A stretch of 64,000 bases of DNA, taken from sequence record OK272482.1. One strand, given 5' to 3'. Each line of letters opens with the position of its first letter. Position 1 is the first letter of the stretch. The position numbers and the translations under genes were made by a program. The notes under the pieces were generated by a model. The model saw only the letters and a program-made list of their open reading frames with translations, was not told the DNA's origin and did not search any database. Positions 35,675-47,268 of the stretch are shown piece after piece. This DNA is from Escherichia phage JLBYU08.

Positions 35675-35683
35675 ATATGATAA

Positions 35684-36511: not shown

Positions 36512-36542
36512 AGCAGACAAAAAGAAAGGGGCCTAAGCCCCT
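36512..36542 (-). terminator. rho-independent terminator closing the island
   Basis: Minus strand AGGGGC-TTAG-GCCCCT followed by TTCTTTTTGT, 20 nt after stop of 36562 gene. Confidence 0.7.
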
Positions 36543-36561
36543 TGATAATTCAGTTAAAAAA

Positions 36562-36981
36562 TTATAATGATTCGTATATTTCAAAAATCCGATTTGCCAG
36601 GTCGTTACGGTAGCGGAATTTTTCCTCACGTTTGATCATAAGATCTTTATAGCCGTACTCTTTAAGCACTTCATTAACTTTATGGCGGCATACTTTCATA
36701 TTATCCTGCGCGTCACCAATAAATCTGTTGCTATGGTGCATGGCTTTAATTTCTTCTTCCAGGACCAGGGCAACTATGCGGACCGGATCAAGCTGATAGG
36801 CGGTAACATCCATGCGGCATTGTAGACGGCTTTTAACGTCCGCCACCGGATATACTGCAACCTCTTCCCCGTCAACATTGACAATAATTAGTTTACCATC
36901 GATTTCGAATCCTTTCGCCGCCGGACCGTGACAAAAAGCGTTATCAAAGCTATATGCCGGATTATCAGATTTAATGTTCAT
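36562..36981 (-). CDS. hypothetical protein (island)
   Basis: 139 aa; own promoter TTGACA-N17-TATATT at ~37032-37060 (minus); followed by terminator 36512-36542. Confidence 0.55.
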   Translation of the reverse strand: MNIKSDNPAYSFDNAFCHGPAAKGFEIDGKLIIVNVDGEEVAVYPVADVKSRLQCRMDVTAYQLDPVRIVALVLEEEIKAMHHSNRFIGDAQDNMKVCRHKVNEVLKEYGYKDLMIKREEKFRYRNDLANRIFEIYESL

Positions 36982-37127
36982 GGTGTTTTTTTACCTCTCA
37001 GTTAATTTTCTTACAACTTCCCTTCAAAAAAGAATATAGCAAAACTGCCGATCCCTGTCAACCAAGGATAGCATAATTTTTATGTGATCAAGGGGCTTTA
37101 TTGCCCCTGACCATGTAACTTGTTGTA

Positions 37128-37391
37128 TTATTTGTTGCTCATCCAGTTTTCCCAAGCTGCCTGATAATCTGCCTCACTACGGCGGATCTCTTCTTGTTCT
37201 TCAAGTCGGATCTCTTCTTCCAGGTACCCCAAGATGTCAGCCTTTTTGGTCTGGCGTAGCATCCAGTCATCTTTTTTGCGGGTAAAGATCTTATAAGCTT
37301 TCTCGCAAACCTCTTTTTTGCTACCTTTCTGGACTTCCAGAACACGATAAGCCATATATTGAACTAGTTTGAGCTGGTCAAGACGTTTCAT
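37128..37391 (-). CDS. hypothetical protein (island)
   Basis: 87 aa, charged/helical; RBS AAGAGGAAA. Confidence 0.55.
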   Translation of the reverse strand: MKRLDQLKLVQYMAYRVLEVQKGSKKEVCEKAYKIFTRKKDDWMLRQTKKADILGYLEEEIRLEEQEEIRRSEADYQAAWENWMSNK

Positions 37392-37453
37392 GATGTTTTT
37401 CCTCTTTATGTGGTTTTTGTTTAGTGGGCCTTTTGGCCCGTGTCATTATCTTA

Positions 37454-37726
37454 TTACTTACGGCGGCAGAATTCAAGCGTTTTTAATTGATAATCTTCCT
37501 CAGCCTGGAGTACAACCGCCTCGATCATTTCGTTGGCATTGTTGAAGCCATACCCTTTAGCGAACTCATCCGCACCACCTTCGTGATCATGTTCTGCGTT
37601 CATCGCTTCCACGAAATGGAATTCAAGATTATTGAGATAAGGGCTTGATGTTCCGTCCTCTTTTTCGATGAGATCCCAAATAGCATTAAAACGTGATTCG
37701 ACTTCTTGATTAATCCAGCTTGACAT
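37454..37726 (-). CDS. hypothetical acidic protein (island)
   Basis: 90 aa; promoter-hairpin-RBS cassette upstream (hairpin 37756-37769). Confidence 0.55.
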   Translation of the reverse strand: MSSWINQEVESRFNAIWDLIEKEDGTSSPYLNNLEFHFVEAMNAEHDHEGGADEFAKGYGFNNANEMIEAVVLQAEEDYQLKTLEFCRRK

Positions 37727-37834
37727 AATGTTTTCCTCTCTTCTGGTTGTTGTGTGGGCACTTTTGCCCCTTCAAGATAAATGTTACCCCACCACCTGGC
37801 AGATGTCAACGGTTTTTATAGTTCTTATATGACA

Positions 37835-37863
37835 GGCAGGCCCGGTGATTGTCTCCCCCTGTT
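37835..37863 (-). repeat. inverted copy of the AACAGGGG..GAGACAATCACCGGGCCTGCC element
   Basis: Reverse complement matches 47398-47430 except for a 4-nt indel. Confidence 0.7.
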
Positions 37864-37945
37864 CCCAAGTGCCGCCCGTTTAATAAGAATAGCAAAAGGG
37901 GCCGAACAAGTCAACCCCCAAAATCAGTACCAAAACACTTTTTAT

Positions 37946-38257
37946 TTATACGGTCCGATCATTGGCCTTTGTCCAGGACCTGGCGATCCGTTTCCCGGTC
38001 ACCTGGAACGGAGACTGCATTGTGTGTAAGGAGTCCAGCGTAAGGGAGGACCGTTTACGGCGTATCTTCAGGATCGCTAACGTATTGTCCATCTCACGGC
38101 CAGGCCCTGGGCGGTATGGTGTGCCTCCAGCGTTAAGGTTGATGATCTCATGTATTGAGATCCGGCGTTGTTTTGCTTCCGCATCTTTGAAGATAGCCAG
38201 CGGAGGAGCTATGCGTTGCCGATACCAATCTAAAACGGTTGGCGTAATAGCGATCAT
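37946..38257 (-). CDS. hypothetical protein (island)
   Basis: 103 aa; ATGA overlap with upstream gene; the C-terminal third looks low-complexity, so the end is uncertain. Confidence 0.4.
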   Translation of the reverse strand: MIAITPTVLDWYRQRIAPPLAIFKDAEAKQRRISIHEIINLNAGGTPYRPGPGREMDNTLAILKIRRKRSSLTLDSLHTMQSPFQVTGKRIARSWTKANDRTV

Positions 38258-38445
38258 ATTTTACCCCCTATGTAGTCCGGTCGGTTTTTCTCTGTCATGC
38301 GCTTAAGCAATTCTTGCATATGGCTGATAGCTTGTAGCGTGTCTTCTTCCAGGCTTGAATCTACATAATCAGGATCGTCTATGACCTTTCTATGATTATG
38401 ATAACGCAGTACCGCCAATACCTTTCTAACTTGTTCAGTATTCAT
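38254..38445 (-). CDS. hypothetical protein (island)
   Basis: 63 aa; RBS AAGGGAG. Confidence 0.5.
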   Translation of the reverse strand: MNTEQVRKVLAVLRYHNHRKVIDDPDYVDSSLEEDTLQAISHMQELLKRMTEKNRPDYIGGKI

Positions 38446-38461
38446 TTTACATCTCCCTTAC

Positions 38462-38752
38462 TTATTGTTGGCGGTTTACGTAAGCTTTACCGTTTACGGT
38501 GATGGGCAGATCTTCCAGGTCTGGATCTTCCTTAAGGTCGCGAGCAAGCTCACCGCACCGGATACCCTCAAATCCGTAGTACTCTGTTGTACCGTCATTA
38601 AAAGTTTTAGTGGCAAGGCATAAGCGATAAGTAACCCCGATTCGATTGACGGCATGAATATCCGTTAGATTAACCTCTTTTGCCAGCTCATTAGCCATTG
38701 CAGGCGCACTAAGTCCAACAACCAGGGCAACCACTGCGATCATCTTTTTCAT
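38462..38752 (-). CDS. secreted small protein (island)
   Basis: 96 aa; clear signal peptide MKKMIAVVALVVGLSAPAMA. Confidence 0.6.
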   Translation of the reverse strand: MKKMIAVVALVVGLSAPAMANELAKEVNLTDIHAVNRIGVTYRLCLATKTFNDGTTEYYGFEGIRCGELARDLKEDPDLEDLPITVNGKAYVNRQQ

Positions 38753-38843
38753 TGTGTCTATCCTCTTTCTGCTACGTTTAAGGCGGCGGTAACCGCCTGT
38801 TTATGCTTTGTTGGTTAATTTTCGGGTATCGGTATAAATTAAA

Positions 38844-39059
38844 CTATGCTGTACGCTCAACTATAACAACGGTTTGGGGGATCTCCCCTTCCACCACTAG
38901 TAAGGCCTTTTTCTGCGTGATAGATATCTTTACCCGTTGCAGCGTGGCGGTGAAGTCTTTCATTTCGTCACGCGGTGTTTTAGTGCAGTACCAGATCTCA
39001 GGCTTGCCGATCTGTAAGTTGCGTAAAAATTCTGTTTTGCCTGTTTTGTTAGTGATCAT
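38844..39059 (-). CDS. hypothetical protein (island)
   Basis: 71 aa; RBS GAGGTTGG. Confidence 0.5.
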   Translation of the reverse strand: MITNKTGKTEFLRNLQIGKPEIWYCTKTPRDEMKDFTATLQRVKISITQKKALLVVEGEIPQTVVIVERTA

Positions 39060-39068
39060 TTGCCAACC

Positions 39069-39173
39069 TCACCCGATACCGTTGGAAGACAAGATCATAT
39101 TAGACATGGTTGCAATCAGGCCAATACCCAGGGCAATAACCAAGATCACTGCATCGATTAATTTCTGTTTCAT
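39069..39173 (-). CDS. 34-aa membrane micro-peptide (island)
   Basis: Not in the track; MKQKLIDAVILVIALGIGLIATMSNMILSSNGIG. Confidence 0.4.
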   Translation of the reverse strand: MKQKLIDAVILVIALGIGLIATMSNMILSSNGIG

Positions 39174-39250
39174 AGTGTTTATTCTCTTCTGTTAGTAACC
39201 TTATTCATGGGGCCGCTACCACAGCCCCAGGGTAAGGCGGCTATGTGCTT

Positions 39251-39496
39251 TTAGTGTTTCATTCCAACCATCGCGGCACGGATCGCCGTAGTGCTGTACT
39301 TGAAGCCGTCCGGGGTCTTATCTTGTCCGGTTAGCTCCAGAAAAAGCATCATATCCCGCGCCGCATCATTACGATCAGCATTAGCGTTAATAAATCCTTG
39401 GGCCAACCGGTACAATGACTCATCGTTATTAATCCAAAGGCTTACATTCCAATGAGTTTTGTTTTTGTAACCGTTATAACCTTTATTGCTTTTCAT
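39251..39496 (-). CDS. hypothetical protein (island)
   Basis: 81 aa; W-rich N-terminal motif THWNVSLWINNDESLY; cassette upstream. Confidence 0.55.
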   Translation of the reverse strand: MKSNKGYNGYKNKTHWNVSLWINNDESLYRLAQGFINANADRNDAARDMMLFLELTGQDKTPDGFKYSTTAIRAAMVGMKH

Positions 39497-39587
39497 GGTG
39501 TTTACCTCTTCTTTGTTCCGGGTGGCGGATCATTCCACCACCTTATGTATTATGCTTTGTTAGATGGTTGTTTGTTGTCAAACTATT

Positions 39588-39767
39588 TTAACGATAATCA
39601 TCGTACGCTTTATTAACCTGGCGAATATAACATTCAAAAGCTAGATCAATAGATTCATATTCACGGATATACTCACCATAGGAAACCACATACATTTCTA
39701 TAACTTCCTCATATGCGAGGAGAATAGAATCTAAGCCTACGATCTCGGTCTTTGCAATAATAGCCAT
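39588..39767 (-). CDS. hypothetical 59-aa protein (island)
   Basis: Not in the track; cassette TTGACA-N16-TATATA, hairpin 39794-39808, RBS AAAGAGGA directly upstream. Confidence 0.5.
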   Translation of the reverse strand: MAIIAKTEIVGLDSILLAYEEVIEMYVVSYGEYIREYESIDLAFECYIRQVNKAYDDYR

Positions 39768-39843
39768 GATTTTTTATCCTCTTTGTGGTTGGTGGGGCTT
39801 GTTGCCCCCTTTGATTTATATACTACAGTTTTATATGGTCATG

Positions 39844-40077
39844 TCAACTATTTTCAAAAAATTTTTCTGCTGTAATATTTTTCCCGGTAGGGTTCGCTAC
39901 TTTCAAAATTTTATCATGCACTGGACGCCCAAAAGAATAAGCGCCGTACACAGTGCACCAATAATCGCCGTCAGGCTGTACTATTACAGCCGCATAGGGT
40001 ACGCCTTTTTCGTTTTTGCTGACAAAATAGATCACGTTGCCATTAATAGCCTCGGCGCGTTTAATTTGTTCCATCAT
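39844..40077 (-). CDS. hypothetical protein (island)
   Basis: 77 aa; hairpin GGGGCCGAAAAGGCCCC in leader. Confidence 0.55.
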   Translation of the reverse strand: MMEQIKRAEAINGNVIYFVSKNEKGVPYAAVIVQPDGDYWCTVYGAYSFGRPVHDKILKVANPTGKNITAEKFFENS

Positions 40078-40132
40078 GATGATTTGCCTCTCTTTATTTT
40101 CATAATTGGGGGCCTTTTCGGCCCCGCCAGGT

Positions 40133-40417
40133 TTATTTATTGATAGCGTGCAGCGGGAAAGGTACGCCAGGTTGATAGATAACTTTTACAACCTCATCAG
40201 AGCAAAAGAAATTACAAAATTCACCCTGATAAGCCTCATCCTCTTTTAATTCTTCATCAACATACTGGAAAAAGTAGTCAATGCTTGGATAATCCTGACC
40301 GGGATTATATTCAACCATGGTTAATAACAATTCTTGATCATTCCGTATGATATGCATACCAGCTTTTAAGTATTTGGCTTCCATTTCTACTACATCGCCA
40401 ACGGTAACAATAGCCAT
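40133..40417 (-). CDS. hypothetical acidic protein (island)
   Basis: 94 aa; RBS TAGGAG. Confidence 0.55.
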   Translation of the reverse strand: MAIVTVGDVVEMEAKYLKAGMHIIRNDQELLLTMVEYNPGQDYPSIDYFFQYVDEELKEDEAYQGEFCNFFCSDEVVKVIYQPGVPFPLHAINK

Positions 40418-40549
40418 GGTTTTAACTCCTATCTATCCGGTTAATGATTGGAGGCCTCACCGCCCCCGACACCCTTTATTATCCATATTGTAGGACTTGA
40501 TGCAAGTACTTCTTTAAAAATTTTTTAAGCGCCTTGGGGGCCGCTGTAA

Positions 40550-40587
40550 CGCCAAAATAATAAAGGCTATGCAACCGCATAGCCTTT
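40550..40587 (-). terminator. rho-independent terminator
   Basis: Minus strand AAAGGCTATGC-GGTT-GCATAGCCTTT followed by ATTATTTT. Confidence 0.7.
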
Positions 40588-40622
40588 ATGTGATTATATC
40601 GCTGCAGGCCCTGCCAGGGACC

Positions 40623-40973
40623 TTATTTTGCATTCTTTCCTATATTGCCGCTACGGTACCAGCGTTTACGGTGAAAATGGTAATAATCACCATCGGCATT
40701 GAACATCAGATGATTTTCAATAACCAGCTTACGAAGGTGGGCCGGATCTTGTTCCATTCTTGCCAGATTCTGGCGGCTGTTACGTAAGCGGATAAATTCT
40801 ATATTCAGGCCGTTGATTGCAGCATGGATGTCAAAGTAACCACCTTTGAGACGTTCACGCATGGCGTTAAGCTCAACACAATATACAGATTTCTCACAAA
40901 TCAAGGTATTAGCCAGGGCGCGGACCTGGGCAAGGGGGTTAAGCTCATTAAGGTAATATAGTTTTACTTTCAT
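40623..40973 (-). CDS. hypothetical protein (island)
   Basis: 116 aa; followed by terminator 40550-40587. Confidence 0.55.
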   Translation of the reverse strand: MKVKLYYLNELNPLAQVRALANTLICEKSVYCVELNAMRERLKGGYFDIHAAINGLNIEFIRLRNSRQNLARMEQDPAHLRKLVIENHLMFNADGDYYHFHRKRWYRSGNIGKNAK

Positions 40974-40990
40974 AAAATCACCTGCTGAAA

Positions 40991-41290
40991 TTAGTTTGAG
41001 AAAACATCGTTCACAATAGCGATCACAATGCCGCCCACCTTGTCACGGTCAACAATGCACAAATCACCATAGATCATGTGGTAGTCTGGATGATCTTTGA
41101 CGGAATAGTCGATAAGTGTTTTCTTGTCATCCAGCTTACTAACTTCCATTCTCATAACGATATGAGAATCATCAAAGGCATTATTCCGAAAAGTCATAAC
41201 CTGACCGCCAGGGCACCCGGTGATTTCCACCTCCACGCCGTCTACGATCTGACCATCAAAGAAATAAAGATTATTAGCCTGGATAAACAT
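40991..41290 (-). CDS. hypothetical protein (island)
   Basis: 99 aa from ATG 41290 (RBS AAAGGAG); preceded by 44-bp promoter repeat 41335-41378. Confidence 0.55.
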   Translation of the reverse strand: MFIQANNLYFFDGQIVDGVEVEITGCPGGQVMTFRNNAFDDSHIVMRMEVSKLDDKKTLIDYSVKDHPDYHMIYGDLCIVDRDKVGGIVIAIVNDVFSN

Positions 41291-41334
41291 GATCATTACT
41301 CCTTTTTGCACTGATTATTTTAACAAGGTTTAAA

Positions 41335-41378
41335 TTTACTTTATTGATGGCCCTGGAGTCAAGGCCATCTAAAAATAA
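41335..41378 (-). repeat. 44-bp promoter-palindrome repeat, copy 1
   Basis: tttactttattgatggccctggAgtcaaggccatctaaaaataa. Minus strand reads GATGGCC-TTGACT-CCAG-GGCCATC...TAAATT. Confidence 0.8.
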
Positions 41379-41381
41379 ATT

Positions 41382-41582
41382 TTACAGGCCTACAATCTCT
41401 TTAATTCGTTTTACTGCTGCCTCAGCGCCTTGAGGGTAAAAATTATGGTAACCAATCACGCGAGTGATACTAATCGCCGTTTGATGATCTTCATAATCAC
41501 CTTTAAAGATTTCTTGACCGTCAATCAGCACGGCAATTTTTTCTTCTTTTTTGAAGTTAATAACGCGGATATTGTTGCTCAT
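41382..41582 (-). CDS. hypothetical protein (island)
   Basis: 66 aa; cassette with hairpin GGGGAGACACTCCCC upstream. Confidence 0.55.
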   Translation of the reverse strand: MSNNIRVINFKKEEKIAVLIDGQEIFKGDYEDHQTAISITRVIGYHNFYPQGAEAAVKRIKEIVGL

Positions 41583-41684
41583 TTTGTTTCTCCTTTTGGA
41601 ACTTTGTCTATGCGGTGGGGAGTGTCTCCCCGTTGATTGTTATTATCCATATTCTGGATCGGATTGCAACACTCAGGGAGAAAA

Positions 41685-41720
41685 AAATTTGAAAAGTTAG
41701 GCCCCCATGATCGGGGGGCC
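41685..41720 (-). terminator. rho-independent terminator
   Basis: Minus strand GGCCCCC-CGATCAT-GGGGGCC followed by TAACTTTTCAAATTTTTTT. Confidence 0.65.
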
Positions 41721-41724
41721 GTTC

Positions 41725-41844: not shown

Positions 41845-41953
41845 CGTCTCCCCCTTTCCTTCTGGTAGTAGTGACGCGATCTACAATGGCCCCCAGGAGT
41901 CCTATCCCGACACACACCACAAGAAAAATTATCTCCGCTGTTGTTCGATCCAT
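41828..41953 (-). CDS. 41-aa membrane micro-peptide (island; frame ambiguous)
   Basis: MDRTTAEIIFLVVCVGIGLLGAIVDRV... looks like a genuine TM segment, but it overlaps an alternative-frame ORF. Confidence 0.3.
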   Translation of the reverse strand: MDRTTAEIIFLVVCVGIGLLGAIVDRVTTTRRKGGDDDNQG

Positions 41954-42086
41954 TGTTATAAAATTCCTCAAGATCAGGCCTGAAAATAAAGCGTTCGTTA
42001 TTGAATCCATCCCGCCAGGCGGCTGGCTTCAAATCTTCACTAAAGGGATTAATTAACGTGGCATTATTTAAACGGCTGGTCCACAT
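41841..42086 (-). CDS. hypothetical protein (island; frame ambiguous)
   Basis: 81 aa from ATG 42086. The N-terminal two-thirds look protein-like; the C-terminal third overlaps the TM ORF in another frame. Confidence 0.3.
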   Translation of the reverse strand: MWTSRLNNATLINPFSEDLKPAAWRDGFNNERFIFRPDLEEFYNNGSNNSGDNFSCGVCRDRTPGGHCRSRHYYQKERGRR

Positions 42087-42435
42087 ATTTTCTATTCCTC
42101 TCAAATAGGCGATCCGCCTCAGTTAAACAAATCTCATGGGCGTGATCTCTGGTTTTAGCTTCATCGAAAACCTGTTGTGCAAGGCTGCAACGTAGGGAGA
42201 CTGGAAGATCACTATAATAGGCGTTGACAAACGTTTGAGCGTCGTACAGGTCTGAAAATACTTTACCCTTTCTATTATTCCCCTTGTCAACAATTGCAAG
42301 GATAACCAATACAATAGTTGCAACCACCCCCAGGAAAATAGATATAATAAACCATAAAAAGGCGGATCTTCCCATCTTGCCAGCGATCCAGGCGTTAAAC
42401 AAGGCAACCAATACAGCCAAAATAATAAATTCCAT
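42064..42435 (-). CDS. membrane protein, 2 TM + soluble C-terminal domain (island)
   Basis: 123 aa from ATG 42435 (RBS AAAGAGG); MEFIILAVLVALFNAWIAG...FLWFIISIFLGVVATIVLVILAIV. Confidence 0.55.
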   Translation of the reverse strand: MEFIILAVLVALFNAWIAGKMGRSAFLWFIISIFLGVVATIVLVILAIVDKGNNRKGKVFSDLYDAQTFVNAYYSDLPVSLRCSLAQQVFDEAKTRDHAHEICLTEADRLFERNRKYVDQPFK

Positions 42436-42459
42436 TCTATGTACCTCTTTTACAGTTCT

Positions 42460-42490
42460 GATTAACAATAAGGCGGCAAATATGCCGCCT
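42460..42490 (-). terminator. rho-independent terminator
   Basis: Minus strand AGGCGGCA-TATT-TGCCGCCT followed by TATTGTT. Confidence 0.6.
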
Positions 42491-42499
42491 GCTACCTGA

Positions 42500-42880
42500 T
42501 TAAAAATTATCGCCGTAAATCTTTCCGCTTTCTACCCATACCACCACGCGAGGCATACTATCCCACACGTCTTGTTTTAGATTGAGCGCGTGCAATTCTT
42601 CGGTGGTGCTCATACCGGGCACGGGCTGATTGTATACTGCAAAACGACCGCCTGCATAATCATAGGCCAGGGTTAAATCACACTGGATCATCTTTTTGAT
42701 CATGGTATTAAGCATGGCGTTAGCCGCATATTGATCACGTTTTAAAGGCAACTCTTTGATTAGTTTGCGATAGTTTTCGATATGGTCGCACACTGTTTCA
42801 CGAGGAAGATCTTTCATATCTTCACGGAATGTAACCAGGTTAAACATAACGGTGTCAATAGCCTTGGTAGTGTTTTTCAT
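42500..42880 (-). CDS. hypothetical protein (island)
   Basis: 126 aa; cassette TTGCAA-N17-TATATT, hairpin GGGGGCAAGACGTTTGCCCC; terminator 42460-42490. Confidence 0.55.
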   Translation of the reverse strand: MKNTTKAIDTVMFNLVTFREDMKDLPRETVCDHIENYRKLIKELPLKRDQYAANAMLNTMIKKMIQCDLTLAYDYAGGRFAVYNQPVPGMSTTEELHALNLKQDVWDSMPRVVVWVESGKIYGDNF

Positions 42881-42970
42881 GATGTTATCCTCTTTGTTTT
42901 GTGTTGGGGCAAACGTCTTGCCCCCTTGAGTTTTAATATAGCAGGTTTTTAGGTTATTGCAACACTTTAT

Positions 42971-43594
42971 TTATGAAAAAGTCATCTCACCATATTCATC
43001 GACATCAAACCGCCAATCATTGGCCTCGATAAGGCCGATCAGGTTTTCTGCGGTGAACTGTTCTAGATAGGCCTCCTCCAGGTCTACGTAAACCTTGCGG
43101 GATAGCTCCCGTACCGTCTCGGTGATCAGTTCTTCCAGGTCTTCCACTTTGTTTTCTTGTTTGGCGGTCAGATCTAGCCAAGTGGTATCAATGTACCCGC
43201 TTACAGTGTTTTCATGGCTGTAATGGCTGTACTTGTCGCGTTCAACACTGGCTGATAACTCGCCATCGTGCATTGTGCCGAACAAGTGACGAATTGATCG
43301 GAACTTGGTCAGGGCCTTTACTTTACGCAAAAATTTTTCTAAATCCACGTTTTCAGCACTGATTGACGCGCCGTCACCCTGGCACCAAAAGCCTGACCAA
43401 TGTACTTCGGTATCTTCAAGGCCATACTCTGGAAAAACATATTCTTTATAGTATTCAATTACACTTTCTGCAAAAAAGTTATCCCCGCTGTGTTCTTCTC
43501 TTTCGCGGACCATTTCAACGGCTTTTTCTTTTTGTTCGTCGGTCAGCACGTCGAAAGATAAATTGTAACCTGCGGTAATGTTAACGGTGGTCAT
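42971..43594 (-). CDS. hypothetical protein, largest island product
   Basis: 207 aa; conserved-looking HWSGFWCQGDGASI motif; cassette 43623-43679 upstream. Confidence 0.6.
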   Translation of the reverse strand: MTTVNITAGYNLSFDVLTDEQKEKAVEMVREREEHSGDNFFAESVIEYYKEYVFPEYGLEDTEVHWSGFWCQGDGASISAENVDLEKFLRKVKALTKFRSIRHLFGTMHDGELSASVERDKYSHYSHENTVSGYIDTTWLDLTAKQENKVEDLEELITETVRELSRKVYVDLEEAYLEQFTAENLIGLIEANDWRFDVDEYGEMTFS

Positions 43595-43622
43595 GATATT
43601 TTCTCCTATTTTCTTTGTTAGT

Positions 43623-43641
43623 GGCGGGAAGTTTTCCCGCC
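43623..43641 (-). promoter_or_regulatory. 5'-leader GC hairpin (example cassette)
   Basis: GGCGGGAA-AAC-TTCCCGCC begins about 10 nt after the -10, with no U-tract after it. Confidence 0.55.
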
Positions 43642-43651
43642 TGTGTGTTTA

Positions 43652-43679
43652 AGTATACTTATTGAGGCTTACTTGTCAA
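43652..43679 (-). promoter_or_regulatory. island promoter (example cassette)
   Basis: Minus strand TTGACA-N16-TATACT. Confidence 0.6.
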
Positions 43680-43929
43680 CACTATTTTTTAAATTATTGT
43701 GGCGCAAAATGTTTAAAATCTCCTCAACGTCATCAACACGGCGGCAATTTTTAAACGCTACCAATTGCCCCATGATTTTAATCACTGGGCGGCCTTGCCA
43801 GTGCCCTTGAATAAAGCGCGCCTTAACCTTATCGGTGGAACTATCCCGCCACCAAACGGCTTTATTATTGCAGTAGTAAAAATTATTTAGGACAACATCG
43901 ACTTTATCAAAATTTTTCAATTTACGCAT
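43669..43929 (-). CDS. hypothetical protein (island)
   Basis: 86 aa; promoter TTGACA-N17-TATACT at ~43957-43985 (minus). Confidence 0.55.
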   Translation of the reverse strand: MRKLKNFDKVDVVLNNFYYCNNKAVWWRDSSTDKVKARFIQGHWQGRPVIKIMGQLVAFKNCRRVDDVEEILNILRHNNLKNSVDK

Positions 43930-44112
43930 GGCGTTTACCCCCCTTACTTCTCGCTTTGATGTGATTAGTATAGCTAACCTGTTGACGATGTCAATGATAT
44001 TTTTAACGCCATGAAACGGCCCTGGGCGATGTTTTCAGGTTAAAGGGGGCGATTGCATAGGTGGGGGCCTTTTTGGCGCTTACAGGGCCAACCAGGGGCG
44101 CTATTCGTAGGA

Positions 44113-44144
44113 TAGAAATAAAAAGCCCCGCACAATGGCGGGGC
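44113..44144 (-). terminator. rho-independent terminator
   Basis: Minus strand GCCCCGC-CATTGT-GCGGGGC followed by TTTTTATTT. Confidence 0.75.
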
Positions 44145-44152
44145 GTTGGTTG

Positions 44153-44350
44153 TTATTTGTCTTTATGGCGGTATCGTTCTGCCTGTCGTTCACGTTCCAA
44201 AAGTAGGCCGGGCAATTTACGATCATAATGATTACGCCAGATCTTCCCAAACCTTTTTGGCTTATTCAGTTTATTGTTACGCTGGCGGCGTTCTGGCAGC
44301 TCTTCGGAATCATGAGGGCGCTTTACAATTTTCTCGAAATTAATTTTCAT
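44153..44350 (-). CDS. highly basic small protein (island)
   Basis: 65 aa from ATG 44350 (RBS AAGGGGGG); Arg/Lys-rich; terminator 44113-44144 follows. Confidence 0.5.
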   Translation of the reverse strand: MKINFEKIVKRPHDSEELPERRQRNNKLNKPKRFGKIWRNHYDRKLPGLLLERERQAERYRHKDK

Positions 44351-44693
44351 ATATTCCCCCCTTGCTAACTTCAATATTGGCCTGAATAGCCCGGATACGG
44401 CGCTTTATAACTTCCTGATCTGTGTGGTCGTATCCCCAAAAGTCTACAATTTTTGCGCCCCCCGCCTCCAGGCGGTATAGTGTTTCCTGCATTTTGTAAG
44501 CCGGGATCGGTCGCGGTGTTACTTGGTCACCTTCTTTATTTTTATACTTTATAATATAATCTTCGTTATCGTTGAATGCCCAAAATGGATATTCTGCAAG
44601 GGCGGTACTTCCTCTTTCCTTTTTATCCTGGATCTTATTTACAATTAAAGCCGTAGCAATAGCGCCAATAATAAAACTTGCCCCGCTGATCAT
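44340..44693 (-). CDS. N-terminally anchored membrane protein (island)
   Basis: 117 aa; MISGASFIIGAIATALIV. Confidence 0.55.
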   Translation of the reverse strand: MISGASFIIGAIATALIVNKIQDKKERGSTALAEYPFWAFNDNEDYIIKYKNKEGDQVTPRPIPAYKMQETLYRLEAGGAKIVDFWGYDHTDQEVIKRRIRAIQANIEVSKGGIYEN

Positions 44694-44767
44694 GTACTTT
44701 CTCCTTTCATGGTGTTAATAAATTATCTTTATAGATGGCCCTGCAACCAGGACCACCGAAAAAATAA

Positions 44768-45013
44768 CTATTTCACAATGCCTACAAAACAGATCCCGCC
44801 TTCACCTATATAAGCAATATCGGTCACTTTATAACTTGTCAAGATCTGCTTATTTAGTTCATTAATAAAATCGGTCATTGCGTTGGTGTAGTTGTCTTCC
44901 GTGTCTAAGGCATAATCCCAGGTGTACACCTTTTTACGTCCGAAGCCTTTTACCATGATACGGGCGCTTTTGGTGTTGGTAGGGGCATAATATTTGGTGA
45001 TTAGTGCTGCCAT
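44768..45013 (-). CDS. hypothetical protein (island)
   Basis: 81 aa; preceded by 44-bp promoter repeat 45057-45100. Confidence 0.55.
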   Translation of the reverse strand: MAALITKYYAPTNTKSARIMVKGFGRKKVYTWDYALDTEDNYTNAMTDFINELNKQILTSYKVTDIAYIGEGGICFVGIVK

Positions 45014-45056
45014 GGTTTTAACTCCTATGCATTAGTTCAGTGTTAACAGTATAAAG

Positions 45057-45100
45057 TTTACTTTATTGATGGCCCTGGTGTCAAGGCCATCTAAAAATAA
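45057..45100 (-). repeat. 44-bp promoter-palindrome repeat, copy 2
   Basis: Identical to copy 3 and 1 mismatch to copy 1. Minus strand TTGACA-N18-TAAACT with the -35 flanked by GATGGCC/GGCCATC arms. Confidence 0.8.
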
Positions 45101-45102
45101 GC

Positions 45103-45444
45103 TTACTCGTTTTCTTCCAGCTCCGCAAGCTCTTCTTTTGCTTCTTCTAACTCTGTCTGTAATTCCTGGTATTCTTCATCGTCCTCAATATCCAGGCTGT
45201 CGATGTAGTCGCTAAATCCGCAGCGGTAAGCGATAGGATCTAGCTCCTTGAGGATACGCGACGGAAGAAAAGAAATGTTTCCGATCATAATTTCGCCGTA
45301 GATCTCGTCTAACCATTCATCATAGTTTTCGTCGTACTTGTCCTCGTCGATTTCAAAGTTATCGATCTTATTCTCAAGGTCTGCGATCTGTTTTTTCAGT
45401 TCAGCGATCTGCATAGCTTTTTCTGAGGCGGTCATAGTAGTCAT
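45103..45444 (-). CDS. very acidic coiled-coil protein (island)
   Basis: 113 aa; about 40% D/E by eye; cassette with hairpin 45471-45483. Confidence 0.55.
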   Translation of the reverse strand: MTTMTASEKAMQIAELKKQIADLENKIDNFEIDEDKYDENYDEWLDEIYGEIMIGNISFLPSRILKELDPIAYRCGFSDYIDSLDIEDDEEYQELQTELEEAKEELAELEENE

Positions 45445-45495
45445 GGTGTTTTTCTCCTTTTGTGTGTTCTGGGAAGTTTTCCCGTTTATGTGCTT

Positions 45496-45523
45496 ATTAT
45501 ATCGATTTAAGTTAGCTTGTCAA
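45496..45523 (-). promoter_or_regulatory. island promoter (example cassette)
   Basis: Minus strand TTGACA-N16-TATAAT, followed by hairpin GGGAAAACTTCCC (45471-45483). Confidence 0.6.
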
Positions 45524-45643
45524 TTAAAAGTTTAAGAAAAATTTTGCGACACCGTTGGCGCTACCCATCAACATTTGCGCCAGGATGTACCCAATGATGC
45601 AAACGATGATGGTTACCTTTGTGTGCTGGCGTGTAGTGCTCAT
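45524..45643 (-). CDS. 39-aa membrane micro-peptide (island)
   Basis: Not in the track; RBS AAAGGAGG; MSTTRQHTKVTIIVCIIGYILAQMLMGSANGVAKFFLNF; preceded by promoter repeat 45678-45721. Confidence 0.5.
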   Translation of the reverse strand: MSTTRQHTKVTIIVCIIGYILAQMLMGSANGVAKFFLNF

Positions 45644-45677
45644 CTTTAAGCCTCCTTTTCCGCTCAACTGTGGTTAG

Positions 45678-45721
45678 TTTACTTTATTGATGGCCCTGGT
45701 GTCAAGGCCATCTAAAAATAA
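45678..45721 (-). repeat. 44-bp promoter-palindrome repeat, copy 3
   Basis: tttactttattgatggccctggtgtcaaggccatctaaaaataa. Confidence 0.8.
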
Positions 45722-45723
45722 AC

Positions 45724-46119
45724 TCAATAAGTTTTTAGTACTTTCCCGTCCAATCTGTCAAGCTGGATCTCGATAGCTGCAGAAAACCTATTGTAAACCA
45801 CATCGCCCAGGGAGTCCAGCCAATCTATGACGTTATATACCTGCTCTTTATTCTTGCAAGTCCGGATCCGTTTCATTACGTAAGACGGATCAATATTAGC
45901 GCTCTCGTTGTTGTGGTCCTGCGCCTGGCCTGCTGCGCTAGTTATAGATTTTACAACCACCTGAAAGGGCTTTAAGGTGCCTTTTGCGTTCATCTCACGC
46001 GCTTTTGCGGCGCGGTTGTTATATGTTACACAACGGCGGCAAATGTTGACCAAATGCATATCAATAATTTTTTCATCGTTTGCCAGTTCGTTCATGATGC
46101 GGCGTACGTTCTTATTCAT
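45724..46119 (-). CDS. hypothetical protein (island)
   Basis: 131 aa; promoter TTGACA-N17-TAAACT upstream. Confidence 0.55.
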   Translation of the reverse strand: MNKNVRRIMNELANDEKIIDMHLVNICRRCVTYNNRAAKAREMNAKGTLKPFQVVVKSITSAAGQAQDHNNESANIDPSYVMKRIRTCKNKEQVYNVIDWLDSLGDVVYNRFSAAIEIQLDRLDGKVLKTY

Positions 46120-46201
46120 GATCTTTTTCCTTTGTGCTGGCGGGAAACATTCCAGCCTTTTGTGTCTAGTTTACTTAAATTTTGCAGCGTGTCAATGATT
46201 T

Positions 46202-46600
46202 TTATTCGTGGGCGCATGTTACAATGTGTTTTTTATAGCCCAGGTGGTCAGCAAGTGCCGACAAAAACTCTTCTTCGTAGATCCAGCCGTCGGCAGTGAT
46301 CCCCATAGCATTTAATGCGCTCTCAAGTGCTGCGTTAGCTTTATCGTAACCGTGACCGCTCGCCTTGCCGCCAGTATAACCGTACTTATTGTTCTTGTTG
46401 TCGTGAATCCAAAACACGCAGTAGTGAGTGTTCCCGCTGGCGGCGGCATAATACCGGATCTCAGCTACTTCGTGCAAATTATTGTCATCGTCCAGGCCCA
46501 CCAGATTATAAGCCTTGTAAAATCCACGATCACGGCGGCAGTTCTTGACATCAGAAAAAGAAAAGTCTGCATTATCAAAATTAAAGGTAGTGGTTTTCAT
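46202..46600 (-). CDS. hypothetical protein (island)
   Basis: 132 aa; motif GGKASGHGYDKANAALESAL; RBS TAAGAGGA. Confidence 0.55.
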   Translation of the reverse strand: MKTTTFNFDNADFSFSDVKNCRRDRGFYKAYNLVGLDDDNNLHEVAEIRYYAAASGNTHYCVFWIHDNKNNKYGYTGGKASGHGYDKANAALESALNAMGITADGWIYEEEFLSALADHLGYKKHIVTCAHE

Positions 46601-46664
46601 GATTTTATCCTCTTAGTGTCTTTTGTGCTTTTAGTGTATTTGGTGTCGGACTGTATGTCAATAC

Positions 46665-46862
46665 TTATTTTTTATTAAACCAGTGGTTGATCTGACCTTT
46701 TGTCAGGGCGCAACGATTAAGCTGTTGCAGGGTATAGCTATGACCGCGACGAAATTTATAAAGGCCTTGCCCGTTGTTGATGGTTACATCCACCCGGCAA
46801 ATCACTTGATTGGTGACCACCTGGCGAGTGTTGCGACGTACTTTGATCCCGTATGCGTTCAT
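46665..46862 (-). CDS. hypothetical basic protein (island)
   Basis: 65 aa from ATG 46862 (RBS AAAGAGGA) downstream of promoter at ~46905-46940. Confidence 0.5.
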   Translation of the reverse strand: MNAYGIKVRRNTRQVVTNQVICRVDVTINNGQGLYKFRRGHSYTLQQLNRCALTKGQINHWFNKK

Positions 46863-46948
46863 AAATTTATCCTCTTTACTGGTTAGTGCGGTGTTGTTCA
46901 CCTTGTAGGGTAATAATACCATGATTAACCTTGTTGTCAACGACTATT

Positions 46949-47110
46949 TTAAATTATTTTTATGATAGAATCCACCTGCCGTCCCCGCCAGGTTAACCAC
47001 CATTTTTCGTACTCTTCTTTATGTTCCAACGCTCCCGCCATAGCCTTTTCAACCAGGGCGATAGCCTCAGAGTCATTAATAGCTACATTTTCCAGGGGGG
47101 ATCATATCAT
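46949..47110 (-). pseudogene. first island ORF, interrupted by in-frame TGA at codon 3 / C6-tract frameshift
   Basis: Strong RBS GAGGAGG, then ATG ATA TGA, continuing in frame for 50 codons (...VAINDSEAIALVEKAMAGALEHKEEYEKWW...). A second ATG 5 nt later is +1 out of frame across a C6 run (G6 at 47095-47100 on +). Confidence 0.3.
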
Positions 47111-47268
47111 TTTTGTACCTCCTCTTCAATTGTTACCTATCCTGTAGCATAGGCCCACCAGGTTTACAAGCCTTCATTCTCCCCTACCTGGTCAGTTAGG
47201 TCCTGCCAGGCTGGCCCCGCCAGGTGGCACAATATACCTATCGAAAGGACGGCAGGCACCGGTGACGG

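What the first reader, a model, noticed from the sequence alone, without database searches (positions are those of the whole stretch)
36512..47110. 10.5-kb minus-strand island of ~32 tiny unknown genes, nearly each with its own promoter / 5' GC-hairpin / RBS cassette
In the flanking modules genes are packed with ATGA or 1-nt overlaps. In this stretch, 50-220 bp spacers precede almost every gene. Read on the minus strand, the spacers follow one blueprint: a TTGACA-like -35, 16-18 nt, a TATAAT-like -10, about 8-12 nt, a short GC-rich hairpin, then an A/C-rich leader ending in AAAGAGGA or AAGGAG and the ATG. Hairpin examples are GGCGGGAAAACTTCCCGCC (43623-43641), GGGAAAACTTCCC (45471-45483), GGGGCAACAAGCCCC (39794-39808) and GGGCAAAAGTGCCC (37756-37769). 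Most of these hairpins lack a following U tract and would sit at the extreme 5' end of the mRNA. 5'-terminal stem-loops are known to protect E. coli mRNAs from 5'-end-dependent RNase E decay (ompA paradigm). I therefore infer a set of independently fired, individually stabilised monocistronic early transcripts. I recognised none of the products; they include at least six membrane micro-peptides, one secreted protein, one very basic protein and one very acidic protein. That mix is the usual profile of host-takeover or anti-defence accessory genes.
Basis: partly seen in the sequence, partly recalled or inferred. Interest (0 to 1): 0.6.

Follow-up and report, generated by a model that had tools for sequence, protein, structure and literature searches.

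The report
Phage early-gene cassettes with leader hairpins
A 10-kb stretch of an rV5-like E. coli phage carries 29 small genes of unknown function, many behind a repeated block (host-type promoter, short GC hairpin at the start of the message, U-poor leader, strong ribosome site) that recurs in two phage subfamilies and probably stabilises early messages and helps genes to be swapped.

Summary
The window is an rV5-like phage (Vequintavirus, about 95% identical to isim and Murica). The island is real. It holds 29 minus-strand ORFs plus one frameshifted gene. The median spacer is 82 nt, against 17 nt in the flanks.

The "one blueprint" claim holds only in part. About 10 of 22 spacers have promoter, a 10-12 nt gap, GC hairpin, U-poor leader, SD and ATG. 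Five strict instances were found against 0.065 expected. Four promoters have no hairpin. Four spacers carry a 49-nt repeat whose hairpin loop holds the -35. Four spacers have a hairpin and no promoter. Five are true terminators.

The hairpins are under selection. Stems are the least variable columns and loops the most variable. Natural variants keep far more stability than random mutants.

The same cassette occurs 13-14 times in phi92-like and phAPEC8-like phages, with a conserved motif between -10 and hairpin. GenBank annotators label these hairpins "terminators".

The closest known kind is the PeSL cassette of T4-type phages, but in RB49 the hairpin lies inside the promoter. A 5'-stabiliser role is plausible and untested. 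"Monocistronic" is not supported.

Verdict: new variant of a known kind, moderate interest.

The parts
36562..46862 (-). Island of 29 small ORFs (34-207 aa), each with an SD-like site. All match PHROG families of unknown function.
46117..46195 (-). Class A cassette of g27. TTGACA N16 TAAACT, 10-nt gap, hairpin 46139-46157, leader, ATG. The window copy has one mismatch; all 12 relatives have a fully paired stem (8 bp, e.g. GGCGGGAATGTTTCCCGCC, in most; 7 bp in two).
45442..45523 (-). Class A cassette of g25. TTGACA N16 TATAAT, 12-nt gap, hairpin 45471-45483 (GGGAAAACTTCCC), A/C-rich leader, AAGGAG, ATG.
43592..43679 (-). Class A cassette of g20. TTGACA N16 TATACT, 10-nt gap, hairpin 43623-43641 (GGCGGGAAAACTTCCCGCC), leader, ATG.
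   Evidence: z = -4.5
42878..42962 (-). Class A cassette of g19. TTGCAA N16 TATATT, 10-nt gap, hairpin 42906-42924, leader, ATG.
41580..41669 (-). Class A cassette of g15. TTGCAA N16 GATAAT, 10-nt gap, hairpin 41617-41631 (GGGGAGACACTCCCC), leader, ATG.
40415..40506 (-). Class A cassette of g12 with a weaker promoter. CTTGCA N17 GATAAT, 10-nt gap, hairpin 40450-40467 containing a G.U pair, leader, ATG.
   Evidence: z = -0.2 for the whole UTR
39765..39847 (-). Class A cassette of g10. TTGACA N16 TAGTAT, 11-nt gap, hairpin 39794-39808, leader, ATG.
39494..39581 (-). Cassette of g9 (DUF7249 gene). TTGACA, then CATAAT after a non-canonical spacing of about 21 nt, then hairpin 39521-39542, leader, ATG. 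This gene is absent from three of the relatives examined.
37724..37809 (-). Class A cassette of g3. TTGACA N17 TAACAT, 11-nt gap, hairpin 37756-37769, leader, ATG.
37389..37476 (-). Weak class A cassette of g2. TTGAAT N17 TAAGAT (the -35 lies inside the g3 coding sequence), 8-nt gap, hairpin 37426-37439, leader, ATG.
46913..46940 (-). Class B: strong promoter of g29 with no hairpin downstream.
46633..46661 (-). Class B: promoter of g28 with no hairpin downstream.
43967..43994 (-). Class B: promoter of g21 with no hairpin, downstream of terminator 44125-44144.
37033..37061 (-). Class B: promoter of g1 with no hairpin.
45676..45724 (-). Class C: 49-nt repeat TTATTTTTAGATGGCCTTGACACCAGGGCCATCAATAAAGTAAACT upstream of g26. 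The hairpin loop holds the -35 TTGACA, and TAAACT lies 18 nt downstream. This is the PeSL-like geometry.
45055..45103 (-). Class C: copy of the 49-nt repeat upstream of g24.
41333..41381 (-). Class C: copy of the 49-nt repeat (92% identical) upstream of g14.
44721..44769 (-). Class C: degenerate copy (69% identical) upstream of g23, with no good promoter hexamers.
40109..40125 (-). Class D: hairpin GGGGCCGAAAAGGCCCC, 7 nt after the g12 stop and 31 nt before the g11 ATG. No recognisable promoter and no U tract.
39208..39229 (-). Class D: hairpin upstream of g8, with no promoter and no U tract.
38781..38798 (-). Class D: hairpin upstream of g6, with no clear promoter and no U tract.
42471..42490 (-). 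Class D/E: hairpin AGGCGGCATATTTGCCGCCT followed by TATTGTT (a weak terminator), 35 nt before the g18 ATG.
44125..44144 (-). Intrinsic terminator: GCCCCGC..GCGGGGC followed by TTTTTATTT.
41700..41720 (-). Terminator-like hairpin followed by a distal T run.
40560..40589 (-). Intrinsic terminator: 13-bp stem followed by TATTTT.
37897..37919 (-). Terminator-like hairpin followed by TTTTG. Its loop holds TTGACT of a second, weak promoter.
36526..36543 (-). Terminator that closes the island. It is also the left junction of the g1 indel.
46949..47110 (-). Remnant of a 58-codon gene that is intact in isim and FFH2. In the window it is broken by a 6-nt deletion, an extra C in a C run and a 1-nt deletion.

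Best explanation
The island is the hyperplastic, host-RNA-polymerase-driven accessory-gene region of an rV5-like phage. It is assembled from small modular expression cassettes.

The main module is:
- an A-rich upstream tract;
- TTGACA, a spacer (usually 16-17 nt) and a -10 hexamer;
- a gap of 10-12 nt;
- a G-first GC hairpin of 5-9 bp;
- a U-poor, A/C-rich, unstructured leader of 20-35 nt;
- a strong Shine-Dalgarno site and ATG.

The hairpin is transcribed as the first structured element of the message that starts at its own promoter. It has no U tract, so it does not end transcription.

I think its most likely role is a 5'-proximal stem-loop that slows 5'-end-dependent decay (RppH and RNase E) and keeps the leader and ribosome site free of upstream sequence. 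The U-poor leader would offer few direct RNase E entry sites.

Transcripts are not monocistronic. Polymerases read through internal cassettes until one of five or six real terminators. Each gene is therefore covered by nested messages, and each internal start adds a fresh hairpin-capped 5' end.

The same conserved pieces (hairpins, leaders, a 49-nt promoter-in-hairpin repeat) also provide short homologies at which genes are gained, lost and swapped between related phages.

Shown here: the geometry, its enrichment, selection on the stems, conservation of the cassette in two subfamilies, and indel junctions that fall in cassette parts.
Inferred: the start sites, the effect on RNA stability, and early timing.
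For: GEOMETRY AND ENRICHMENT
- 5 strict promoter-plus-hairpin pairs against 0.065 expected.
- About 10 by relaxed criteria, all within 37.4-46.2 kb on the minus strand.
- All ten predicted 5' UTRs fold as one 5'-proximal hairpin plus an open leader. Six of ten have z <= -2.75.

SELECTION ON THE HAIRPINS
- In 12 Vequintavirus relatives, stem columns vary at 16%, loops at 49%, flanks at 25-27% and coding sequence at 23%.
- 40 natural variants keep a summed dG of -382.7 kcal/mol. Random mutants with the same number of changes give -232.5 +/- 15.7, and none of 500 reached the observed value.
- All variants still fold as hairpins.

DEEP CONSERVATION
- 13 cassettes in a phi92-like phage (shuffles give 0.48), 14 in a phAPEC8-like phage, and 2 strict ones in Certrevirus CR9.
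- In those paralogous copies the spacer between -35 and -10 is random (0.0-0.8 bit per position). By contrast, the gap motif KTAYCACRTAGG and the hairpin are conserved. The copies are therefore not recent duplicates.
- A 54-nt cassette probe hits 672 places in 151 phage records.

NOT TERMINATORS
- The 10-nt tails are 51% A and 17% T, with no T runs.
- Leaders are 12-14% U against 25% in the coding sequence. RNWUU-like motifs occur at 0.54 against 2.46 per 100 nt.

BACKGROUND ON 5' ENDS
- RNase E cleaves much faster with an accessible 5'-monophosphate end than with a base-paired one. The review that states this lists 5'-terminal stem-loop stabilisation (ompA, papA) among its references (PMC3997798).

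SHUFFLING
- g1 is present or absent between two similar hairpins, with an 18-19 nt junction overlap.
- g9 is lost between two RBS leaders, with a 32-nt overlap.
- A 265-nt insertion in JeffSchatz is flanked by a 28-nt leader repeat.
- Cassette parts form repeat families inside the island.
Against: - No transcription start has been mapped for any phage of these groups. I found no such data in the searchable library.
- With a start 7 nt after the -10, mostly 4-5 nt (range 0-6) would be unpaired at the 5' end. From memory of the ompA work, that is at the edge of what still protects.
- Four strong promoters have no hairpin, and four hairpins have no promoter. The hairpin is therefore not strictly a 5'-end device.
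- Mispairs in stems are not clearly biased towards G.U over A.C (11 against 8). RNA-level selection on the sense strand is therefore not demonstrated against a DNA-level palindrome.
- In RB49 a PeSL stem-loop lowered downstream lacZ expression as much as rrnB T1 (PMC2839356). A GC hairpin without an obvious U tract may therefore attenuate transcription.
- Two of the ten predicted UTRs are no more stable than shuffles.
Confidence: 0.5

Rival explanations
1. The hairpins are recognition elements for a protein, phage-encoded or host. They would be read either as RNA at the 5' end of every early message or as a DNA inverted repeat just downstream of the start site. This would give one factor control over the whole early set, for example timed shut-off, antitermination or 5'-end modification.
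For: - In Stephanstirmvirinae the hairpin is a sequence family, not just any GC stem. GGCGGGAAATGGTTTCCCGCC occurs six times unchanged in one phage.
- The apex AAT(G/A)GT recurs, and a conserved motif KTAYCACRTAGG precedes the hairpin.
- The spacer between -35 and -10 is random in the same copies.
- The position, about +4 to +25, is a classical operator or roadblock position (established knowledge).
Against: - In the window the hairpins differ widely in sequence: GGGGCAA.., GGGGAG.., GGGCC.., GGCGGGAA...
- Loops are the most variable columns.
- The distance between the outer half-sites varies (16, 17, 19, 21 nt), which does not fit a rigid dimeric operator.
- There is no boxA on the coding strand of the island, and there was no Rfam match.
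- No candidate binding protein was identified.
Confidence: 0.15
2. The hairpins are transcription attenuators or terminators, as proposed for PeSL stem-loops and as labelled in GenBank records. They would damp read-through from upstream cassettes so that expression does not pile up along the island.
For: - The RB49 PeSL211/210 stem-loop reduced downstream lacZ expression about as much as rrnB T1 (PMC2839356).
- WebGeSTer and TransTermHP call these hairpins terminators in phage ASO2A. Murica's record also marks several hairpin elements of the island as terminators, including two copies of the 49-nt repeat and the 42490 hairpin.
- Class D hairpins sit 7-17 nt after a stop codon.
Against: - In the main class the hairpin lies downstream of its own promoter. 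An efficient terminator there would abort the cassette's own message.
- None has a U tract, and tails are A/C-rich.
- The island has separate, canonical terminators with T runs.
Confidence: 0.12
3. The hairpins have no RNA function. They are DNA palindromes maintained because they act as recombination or template-switch sites that move gene cassettes, which is the PeSL shuffling role alone.
For: - Indel junctions fall in hairpins and leaders, with 18-32 nt of overlap.
- Loop inversions ("flips") between relatives, in g20, g27 and g8, show that the inverted repeats are active at the DNA level.
- There is no clear G.U over A.C bias.
Against: - A recombination role does not explain the fixed 10-12 nt offset from the -10 hexamer.
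- It does not explain the absence of U after the hairpin, or the fixed 20-35 nt distance to the ATG.
- Any conserved 20-30 nt would serve as homology, so pairing itself need not be kept. Yet stability is kept through substitutions.
Confidence: 0.1
4. The hairpins terminate antisense transcription that enters the island on the plus strand.
For: On the plus strand, six of the window's hairpins are followed by moderately T-rich tails and are flagged as terminator-like.
Against: - That T-richness is simply the complement of the A-rich gap and -10 region.
- In Stephanstirmvirinae the complement of the conserved gap is CCTAYGTGRTAM, which has no T tract.
- The plus-strand module ends about 2.9 kb before the island.
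Confidence: 0.05

Closest known systems
PeSL (promoter-early stem-loop) regulatory cassettes of T4-type phages RB49/phi1, PST and nt-1 (Arbiol et al. 2010, PMC2839356; Comeau et al. 2014, PMC4122927)
   Same: - A sigma-70-like early promoter with an A/T-rich upstream tract.
- A GC stem-loop of the form G(n)-loop-C(n).
- An A/C-rich leader, then SD and ATG.
- Repeated in front of small ORFans in a hyperplastic region.
- Gene indels with junctions inside the cassettes.
- The window's 49-nt repeat, with the -35 in the hairpin loop, has the PeSL geometry proper.
   Different: - In RB49 I found the stem-loop between -35 and -10, or across the -10, that is upstream of the start site. The paper calls these the commonest positions.
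- Here and in phi92- and phAPEC8-like phages the main class has the hairpin 10-12 nt downstream of the -10, inside the cassette's own transcript. The terminator/attenuator role proposed for PeSLs therefore fits poorly.
- This is a different phage lineage, not Straboviridae.
- The paper's own description of T-even elements as analogues rather than homologues suggests the same caution here.
- Mini-circles were not tested.
5'-terminal stabilising stem-loops of E. coli mRNAs (ompA, papA) and the 5' stem-loop of the T7 gene 10 leader
   Same: - A short stable hairpin close to the 5' end, with no U tract.
- It is followed by an open leader and a strong ribosome site.
- The known effect is protection from 5'-end-dependent RNase E attack (review PMC3997798; the T7 gene 10 case is from memory).
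   Different: - Here the start sites are not mapped.
- The predicted unpaired 5' segment is mostly 4-5 nt, at or beyond the tolerated limit as I recall it.
- The element is reiterated 10-14 times per genome as part of a conserved promoter cassette, rather than being a feature of a single gene.
RNase III processing sites between phage T7 early genes
   Same: Stem-loops sit between small early genes that are transcribed by host polymerase. They would leave hairpin-ended, individually stable messages (from memory).
   Different: - The class A hairpins are 5-9 bp, too short for RNase III, which needs about two helical turns (established knowledge).
- Only the 49-nt repeat could form a stem of about 20 bp with an internal loop.
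- In T7 the sites are not paired with promoters.
Lambda nut sites (boxA and boxB) and HK022 put RNAs
   Same: Small promoter-proximal RNA hairpins, some with A-rich loops. One here, GGGGCCGAAAAGGCCCC, has a GAAAA loop.
   Different: - There is no boxA on the island's coding strand.
- Loops are not conserved.
- There are tens of copies rather than two.
- No N-like protein was identified.
- There are only five or six terminators to override.

Membership tests
PeSL cassettes (T4-type phages) | Sigma-70-like early promoter with an A/T-rich upstream tract | tested here: met
   14 strong promoters in the island. An A-rich tract at about -40 to -44 is seen in paralogous cassettes.
PeSL cassettes (T4-type phages) | GC-rich stem-loop (G-run, loop, C-run) as part of the cassette | tested here: met
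   Every class A and class D stem starts with a G-rich arm. The same holds in RB49.
PeSL cassettes (T4-type phages) | Stem-loop placed inside or across the promoter (between -35 and -10, or over the -10), so that it is transcribed only by read-through | tested here: not met
   The main class has the hairpin 10-12 nt downstream of the -10. Only the four copies of the 49-nt repeat have the hairpin around the -35. [quoted passage not shown]
PeSL cassettes (T4-type phages) | SD and start codon at the 3' end; cassettes precede ORFans in a hyperplastic region | tested here: met
PeSL cassettes (T4-type phages) | Gene indels between close relatives with crossover points inside the cassettes | tested here: met
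   The g1, g9 and JeffSchatz indels have 18-32 nt junction overlaps in hairpins or leaders. Other indels (g4, g13) have junctions at gene ends without clear cassette homology.
PeSL cassettes (T4-type phages) | Stem-loop terminates or attenuates transcription; mini-circles are formed | not testable with these tools
   This needs reporter assays and inverse PCR. The sequence argues against termination, because there is no U tract.
5'-terminal stabilising stem-loop (ompA / T7 gene 10 type) | Hairpin within a few (about 2-4) nucleotides of the primary 5' end | tested here: inconclusive
   The gap from -10 to hairpin is 8-15 nt, most often 11-12. With a start 7 nt after the -10, 0-6 nt are unpaired. 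The true starts are unknown.
5'-terminal stabilising stem-loop (ompA / T7 gene 10 type) | Stable stem that is kept in evolution, with no terminator tail | tested here: met
5'-terminal stabilising stem-loop (ompA / T7 gene 10 type) | Removing the stem shortens mRNA half-life in a way that depends on RppH and the RNase E 5' sensor | not testable with these tools
   This needs an experiment.
Intrinsic (rho-independent) terminator | GC hairpin followed directly by a U tract | tested here: not met
   The class A and class D hairpins have A/C-rich tails. Only 44144, 41720, 40589, 37919, 36543 and, weakly, 42490 qualify.
Lambda-type nut site | boxA (CGCTCTTA) next to a boxB hairpin with a conserved purine-rich loop | tested here: not met
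   boxA is absent from the island; the two matches in the window are no more than chance gives. Loops are the most variable columns.
Any Rfam RNA family | Match to a curated covariance model | tested here: not met
   No match with E <= 1 in 33.5-48.5 kb.

The most novel reading that the evidence does not exclude
The conserved unit formed by the motif KTAYCACRTAGG and the G-first hairpin is a regulon-wide 5' tag on early messages of rV5-, phi92- and phAPEC8-like phages. A dedicated phage or host factor would read it to set the fate of all early mRNAs at once. The outcome could be protection while host mRNA is being destroyed, or a timed shut-off. On this reading it is not a passive stabiliser.
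Probability: 0.15. Interest if true: 0.75.

Novelty: new variant of a known kind. Interest (0 to 1): 0.48.

Why it matters
Two large and much-isolated groups of E. coli and Enterobacteriaceae phages, Vequintavirinae and Stephanstirmvirinae, are common in therapy collections. If the reading is right, they express their accessory early genes from one portable, strongly selected cassette.

Knowing this would:
- correct a systematic mis-annotation, in which "terminators" are placed between promoters and their genes;
- give a simple sequence rule for finding the early accessory genes of these phages, which is where anti-defence and takeover functions are expected;
- provide compact natural promoter-plus-leader parts for expression design;
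- extend the PeSL idea of promoter-plus-hairpin cassettes as units of gene shuffling beyond T4-type phages.

It does not overturn any principle.

Tried and rejected
- Rfam scan of 33.5-48.5 kb at E <= 1: nothing.
- tRNA scan of the window: none.
- IMG/VR search with the 207-aa protein: only two close relatives, so GenBank phage records were used instead.
- Pfam on all 29 products: only DUF7249 and Phage_1_1 pass the curated cut-offs.
- PDB sequence search of the six largest products: nothing.
- G.U against A.C mispair count, meant to decide between RNA-level and DNA-level selection: 11 against 8, uninformative.
- "G-rich arm first" as a strand indicator: rejected, because G(n)-loop-C(n) is its own reverse complement.
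- nut/boxB reading: rejected.
- RNase III reading for the short hairpins: rejected on stem length.
- Antisense-terminator reading: rejected, because the relatives lack the T-rich complement.
- phi92 and PVP-SE1 genome papers: not held in the library.
- The phi92 region I fetched turned out to be the structural module and was not used.
- tblastn with g3, to reach the RB49 homologue noted in the rV5 record: RB49 did not appear among the rows listed, so this link was not followed.
- Literature searches for transcriptomes or start-site maps of these phages: none found.

Full report
IDENTITY AND LAYOUT

The island region matches 302 phage records. The best matches are Vequintavirus (rV5-like) genomes such as isim and Murica, at about 94-95% identity over its full length.

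In rV5 terms the island is the distal end of the long leftward unit "genes 10-1-238-164", namely ORFs 164 to about 196.

I defined 29 minus-strand ORFs of 34-207 aa between 36562 and 46862, each with an SD-like site. A thirtieth gene, 58 codons and intact in isim and FFH2, is frameshifted in the window at 46949-47110.

All 29 products match PHROG families of unknown function. Pfam recognises only g9 as DUF7249 and g22 as T7 gp1.1-like Phage_1_1. The six largest products have no relative in the PDB.

Six products have a hydrophobic segment, one of which looks like a signal peptide. The most basic products have pI 10.6-11.2 and the most acidic pI 4.05.

Spacers. 22 of 29 genes have an upstream spacer of at least 50 nt; the other seven overlap or are tightly coupled to the gene upstream. 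With the same crude gene caller, the island has a median spacer of 82 nt and a coding fraction of 0.73. The two flanking blocks have 17 nt and 0.88-0.90.

Hairpins.

Enrichment. The strict scan required a -35 and -10 each matching at least 4 of 6 bases and 9 of 12 in all, then a perfect GC-rich stem of at least 5 bp starting 5-14 nt after the -10. It found five pairs on the island's minus strand, all with a gap of 10-11 nt. Two hundred dinucleotide shuffles gave a mean of 0.065 and a maximum of 1.

Localisation. With relaxed criteria over the whole window on both strands, every convincing instance lies at 37.4-46.2 kb on the minus strand.

BUT THERE IS NOT ONE BLUEPRINT

Reading each spacer gives five classes.

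- Class A, about ten spacers (g27, g25, g20, g19, g15, g12, g10, g9, g3, g2). The order is promoter, 8-12 nt gap, hairpin, 19-34 nt leader, ATG. Two have weak or non-canonical promoters: g9 has a spacing of about 21 nt, and g2 reads TTGAAT/TAAGAT.
- Class B, four spacers (g29, g28, g21, g1). A strong promoter with no hairpin.
- Class C, four spacers (g26, g24, g14, and a degenerate copy at g23). A 49-nt repeat, TTATTTTTAGATGGCCTTGACACCAGGGCCATCAATAAAGTAAACT. Its hairpin carries the -35 TTGACA in its loop.
- Class D, four spacers (g11, g8, g6, g18). A hairpin shortly after the upstream stop codon and 28-37 nt before the next ATG. There is no recognisable promoter, and no U tract except a weak one at g18.
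- Class E. Canonical terminators with T runs at 44144, 41720, 40589, 37919 and 36543.

So 14 strong promoters, 17-18 counting weak ones, serve 29 genes. Only five or six sites can stop polymerase.

The expected pattern is nested, read-through transcripts in about six terminator-bounded blocks.

ARE THE HAIRPINS SELECTED?

I located 14 hairpins by homology, not by structure, in up to 12 Vequintavirus relatives. Each was found in 6-12 of them.

- Every variant still folds as a hairpin at the same place.
- Stem columns are the least variable (30 of 188, 16%). Loops are the most variable (28 of 57, 49%). The 10-nt flanks vary at 25-27% and the adjoining coding sequence at 23%.
- Forty distinct natural variants keep a summed folding energy of -382.7 kcal/mol. 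Random mutants of the window hairpins with the same number of changes average -232.5, with an sd of 15.7. None of 500 random sets reached the observed value. The variants are phylogenetically related, so this is not an exact probability, but the gap is about nine standard deviations.
- Changes include G.U/G-C/A-U series (g12), an A-U pair replaced by G.U (g19), and inversions of the loop (g20, g27, g8).
- When the ten predicted 5' UTRs are folded, each gives one 5'-proximal hairpin and an otherwise open leader. z-scores run from -0.2 to -4.5, and six are at or below -2.75.

THE CASSETTE IS MUCH OLDER THAN THIS PHAGE

The small-gene regions of three distant relatives were scanned in the same way.

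- A phi92-like Justusliebigvirus (ESCO32) has 13 promoter-hairpin cassettes in 12 kb. Shuffles give 0.48.
- A phAPEC8-like Phapecoctavirus (vB_Ec-G1) has 14.
- Certrevirus CR9 has two strict ones.

In these phages the hairpin is a sequence family:
- GGCGGGAAATGGTTTCCCGCC, six identical copies in ESCO32;
- GCGGCAATGGTGCCGC;
- GCGGGAATAGTTCCCGC.

These resemble the window's GGCGGGAAAACTTCCCGCC, GGGAAAACTTCCC and GGCGGGAATGTTTCCCGCC.

Across 24 paralogous cassettes the spacer between -35 and -10 carries almost no information (0.0-0.8 bit per position). By contrast, the -35, the -10, a gap motif (G/T)TA(T/C)CAC(A/G)TAGG and the hairpin are conserved. The copies are therefore old, and the conserved parts are held by selection.

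Geometry over 33 cassettes:
- the gap from -10 to hairpin is 8-15 nt, most often 11-12;
- the distance from hairpin to ATG is 13-35 nt;
- the 10 nt after the hairpin are 51% A and 17% T.

A 54-nt probe spanning the -10, gap, hairpin and leader hits 672 places in 151 phage records. Nearly all are Stephanstirmvirinae, with some Vequintavirus.

WHAT HAS BEEN SAID ABOUT THEM

- The rV5 paper predicts 33 promoters and 20 terminators and does not mention leader hairpins. Its GenBank record marks six promoters in this region.
- In phage ASO2A the record places "rho-independent terminator (WebGeSTer/TransTermHP)" features about 10 nt after "promoter" features and about 12 nt before the gene. That arrangement makes no sense for real terminators. 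The paper only counts them.
- Murica's record labels the 49-nt repeat as a terminator.
- I found no transcriptome or start-site map for these phages in the searchable library.

MECHANISM

The hairpins after promoters cannot be classical terminators. They have no U tract, they lie inside their own cassette's transcript, and the island has separate real terminators.

Four features tie the hairpin to the message that starts at the promoter:
- its fixed offset from the -10;
- its fixed distance to the ATG;
- the open leader, which is U-poor at 12-14% U against 25% in the coding sequence;
- the four- to five-fold depletion of RNWUU-like motifs in that leader.

A 5'-proximal stem-loop hinders RppH and RNase E attack from the 5' end (background: PMC3997798). 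I would add that the leader seems built to avoid both internal structure and RNase E entry sites.

The weak points of this reading:
- The predicted unpaired 5' segment is mostly 4-5 nt if transcription starts 7 nt after the -10. From memory of the ompA work, that is borderline.
- Class B promoters do without a hairpin.
- Class D hairpins do without a promoter. Those may protect processed 5' ends or upstream 3' ends.
- The G.U against A.C count (11 against 8) does not prove RNA-level selection.

I put this reading at about 0.5.

SECOND ROLE: GENE SHUFFLING

Gene content differs between relatives, and several junctions fall in cassette parts with short overlaps.

- g1 is present or absent between the similar hairpins at 36543 and 37108, with an 18-19 nt overlap.
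- g9 is lost between two RBS leaders, with a 32-nt overlap.
- A 265-nt insertion in JeffSchatz is flanked by a 28-nt leader repeat.

Cassette parts also form repeat families inside the island: the 49-nt element (four copies), the leader-plus-ATG blocks, and hairpin plus leader shared by g20 and g25.

COMPARISON WITH WHAT IS KNOWN

The closest described kind is the PeSL cassette of T4-type phages. It consists of a sigma-70-like early promoter, a G(n)-loop-C(n) stem-loop, SD and ATG. It is repeated before ORFans in hyperplastic regions and mediates recombination (PMC2839356 and PMC4122927).

I read the RB49 cassettes directly. Their stem-loop lies between -35 and -10 (GGGGATC..GATCCCC) or across the -10, that is upstream of the start site. 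That suits the attenuator role proposed for them.

In rV5-, phi92- and phAPEC8-like phages the main class has the hairpin inside the transcript. Only the window's 49-nt repeat has the PeSL geometry.

I therefore file the finding as a new variant of a known kind. It works like a PeSL as a modular, shuffling expression cassette. It fails the positional feature, and it lies in a different phage lineage.

Readings as a lambda nut site, a T7 RNase III site or an Rfam family were tested and rejected.

VERDICT

The thing is real, selected and widespread. In database records its hairpins are labelled terminators, which the sequence does not support. Its proposed mechanism is plausible but unproven.

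Interest is moderate, 0.48. It is useful and tidy, not revolutionary.

Noticed in passing
window 33700-36500: About 2.9 kb with no ORF of 90 aa or more between the convergent plus-strand and minus-strand modules. It matches the "non-coding" box of the rV5 paper. A repeat-dense core at 35.5-35.95 kb holds an exact 20-nt direct repeat (35684 and 35882), a tandem 16-mer (35601-35632) and inverted repeats AAGCAGGGCAACTAT/ATAGTTGCCTTGCTT. In phage isim the genome ends were placed near here and repeat_region features are annotated. It could be a replication origin or a packaging or terminal region.
   Followed up: partly
window 34135-34207 (+): A near-consensus promoter (TTGACA N16 TAAAAT, with TG upstream) in the non-coding region. 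About 22 nt later comes a small hairpin, CCGAGTAATTCGG, followed by GTTTTCTGTT. This could give a very short transcript or small RNA.
   Followed up: no
window 47566-47761: Three copies of a 57-nt direct repeat (63-74% identical), spaced 65-74 nt apart, just upstream of the island in a poorly coding stretch.
   Followed up: no
window 46949-47110 (-): A 58-codon gene that is intact in isim and FFH2 is disrupted in the window by a 6-nt deletion, an extra C in a C run and a 1-nt deletion in an A run. It is either a pseudogene or a homopolymer sequencing error.
   Followed up: yes
window 47213-47229: Relative to all but one of the relatives compared, the window lacks about 50-70 nt between two copies of a 17-nt direct repeat (CACCTGGCGGGGCC..). 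This looks like a deletion by recombination between short repeats.
   Followed up: partly
window 39251-39496 (g9, DUF7249): This gene is shared at 75-92% nucleotide identity with unrelated phage groups, including Justusliebigvirus, Phapecoctavirus and about 350-kb jumbo phages such as slurp01. It is absent from several Vequintavirus relatives. It appears to be a mobile accessory gene.
   Followed up: partly
L018, L012, L010/L019/L003 compared with window 43623-43641, 39208-39229, 46139-46157: In some relatives the central part of a hairpin is replaced by its reverse complement (a loop "flip"), for example AAAACTT becoming AAGTTTT. This indicates template switching or inversion at the inverted repeats.
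   Followed up: partly
L021 1316-2548 (Phapecoctavirus vB_Ec-G1): Two adjacent genes annotated "goF mRNA metabolism modulator" lie next to the cassette-rich early region. The rV5 paper calls rV5 gp11 an Srd homologue. Both hint that these phages manipulate host mRNA decay, which would make protection of their own 5' ends relevant.
   Followed up: no
L023 (rV5 record), ORF167 and ORF205 notes: The rV5 annotation notes similarity of two island-region proteins to RB49 hypothetical proteins. RB49 is the phage in which PeSLs were defined, so ORFans may have been exchanged between the two lineages. RB49 did not appear among the tblastn rows listed for g3.
   Followed up: partly
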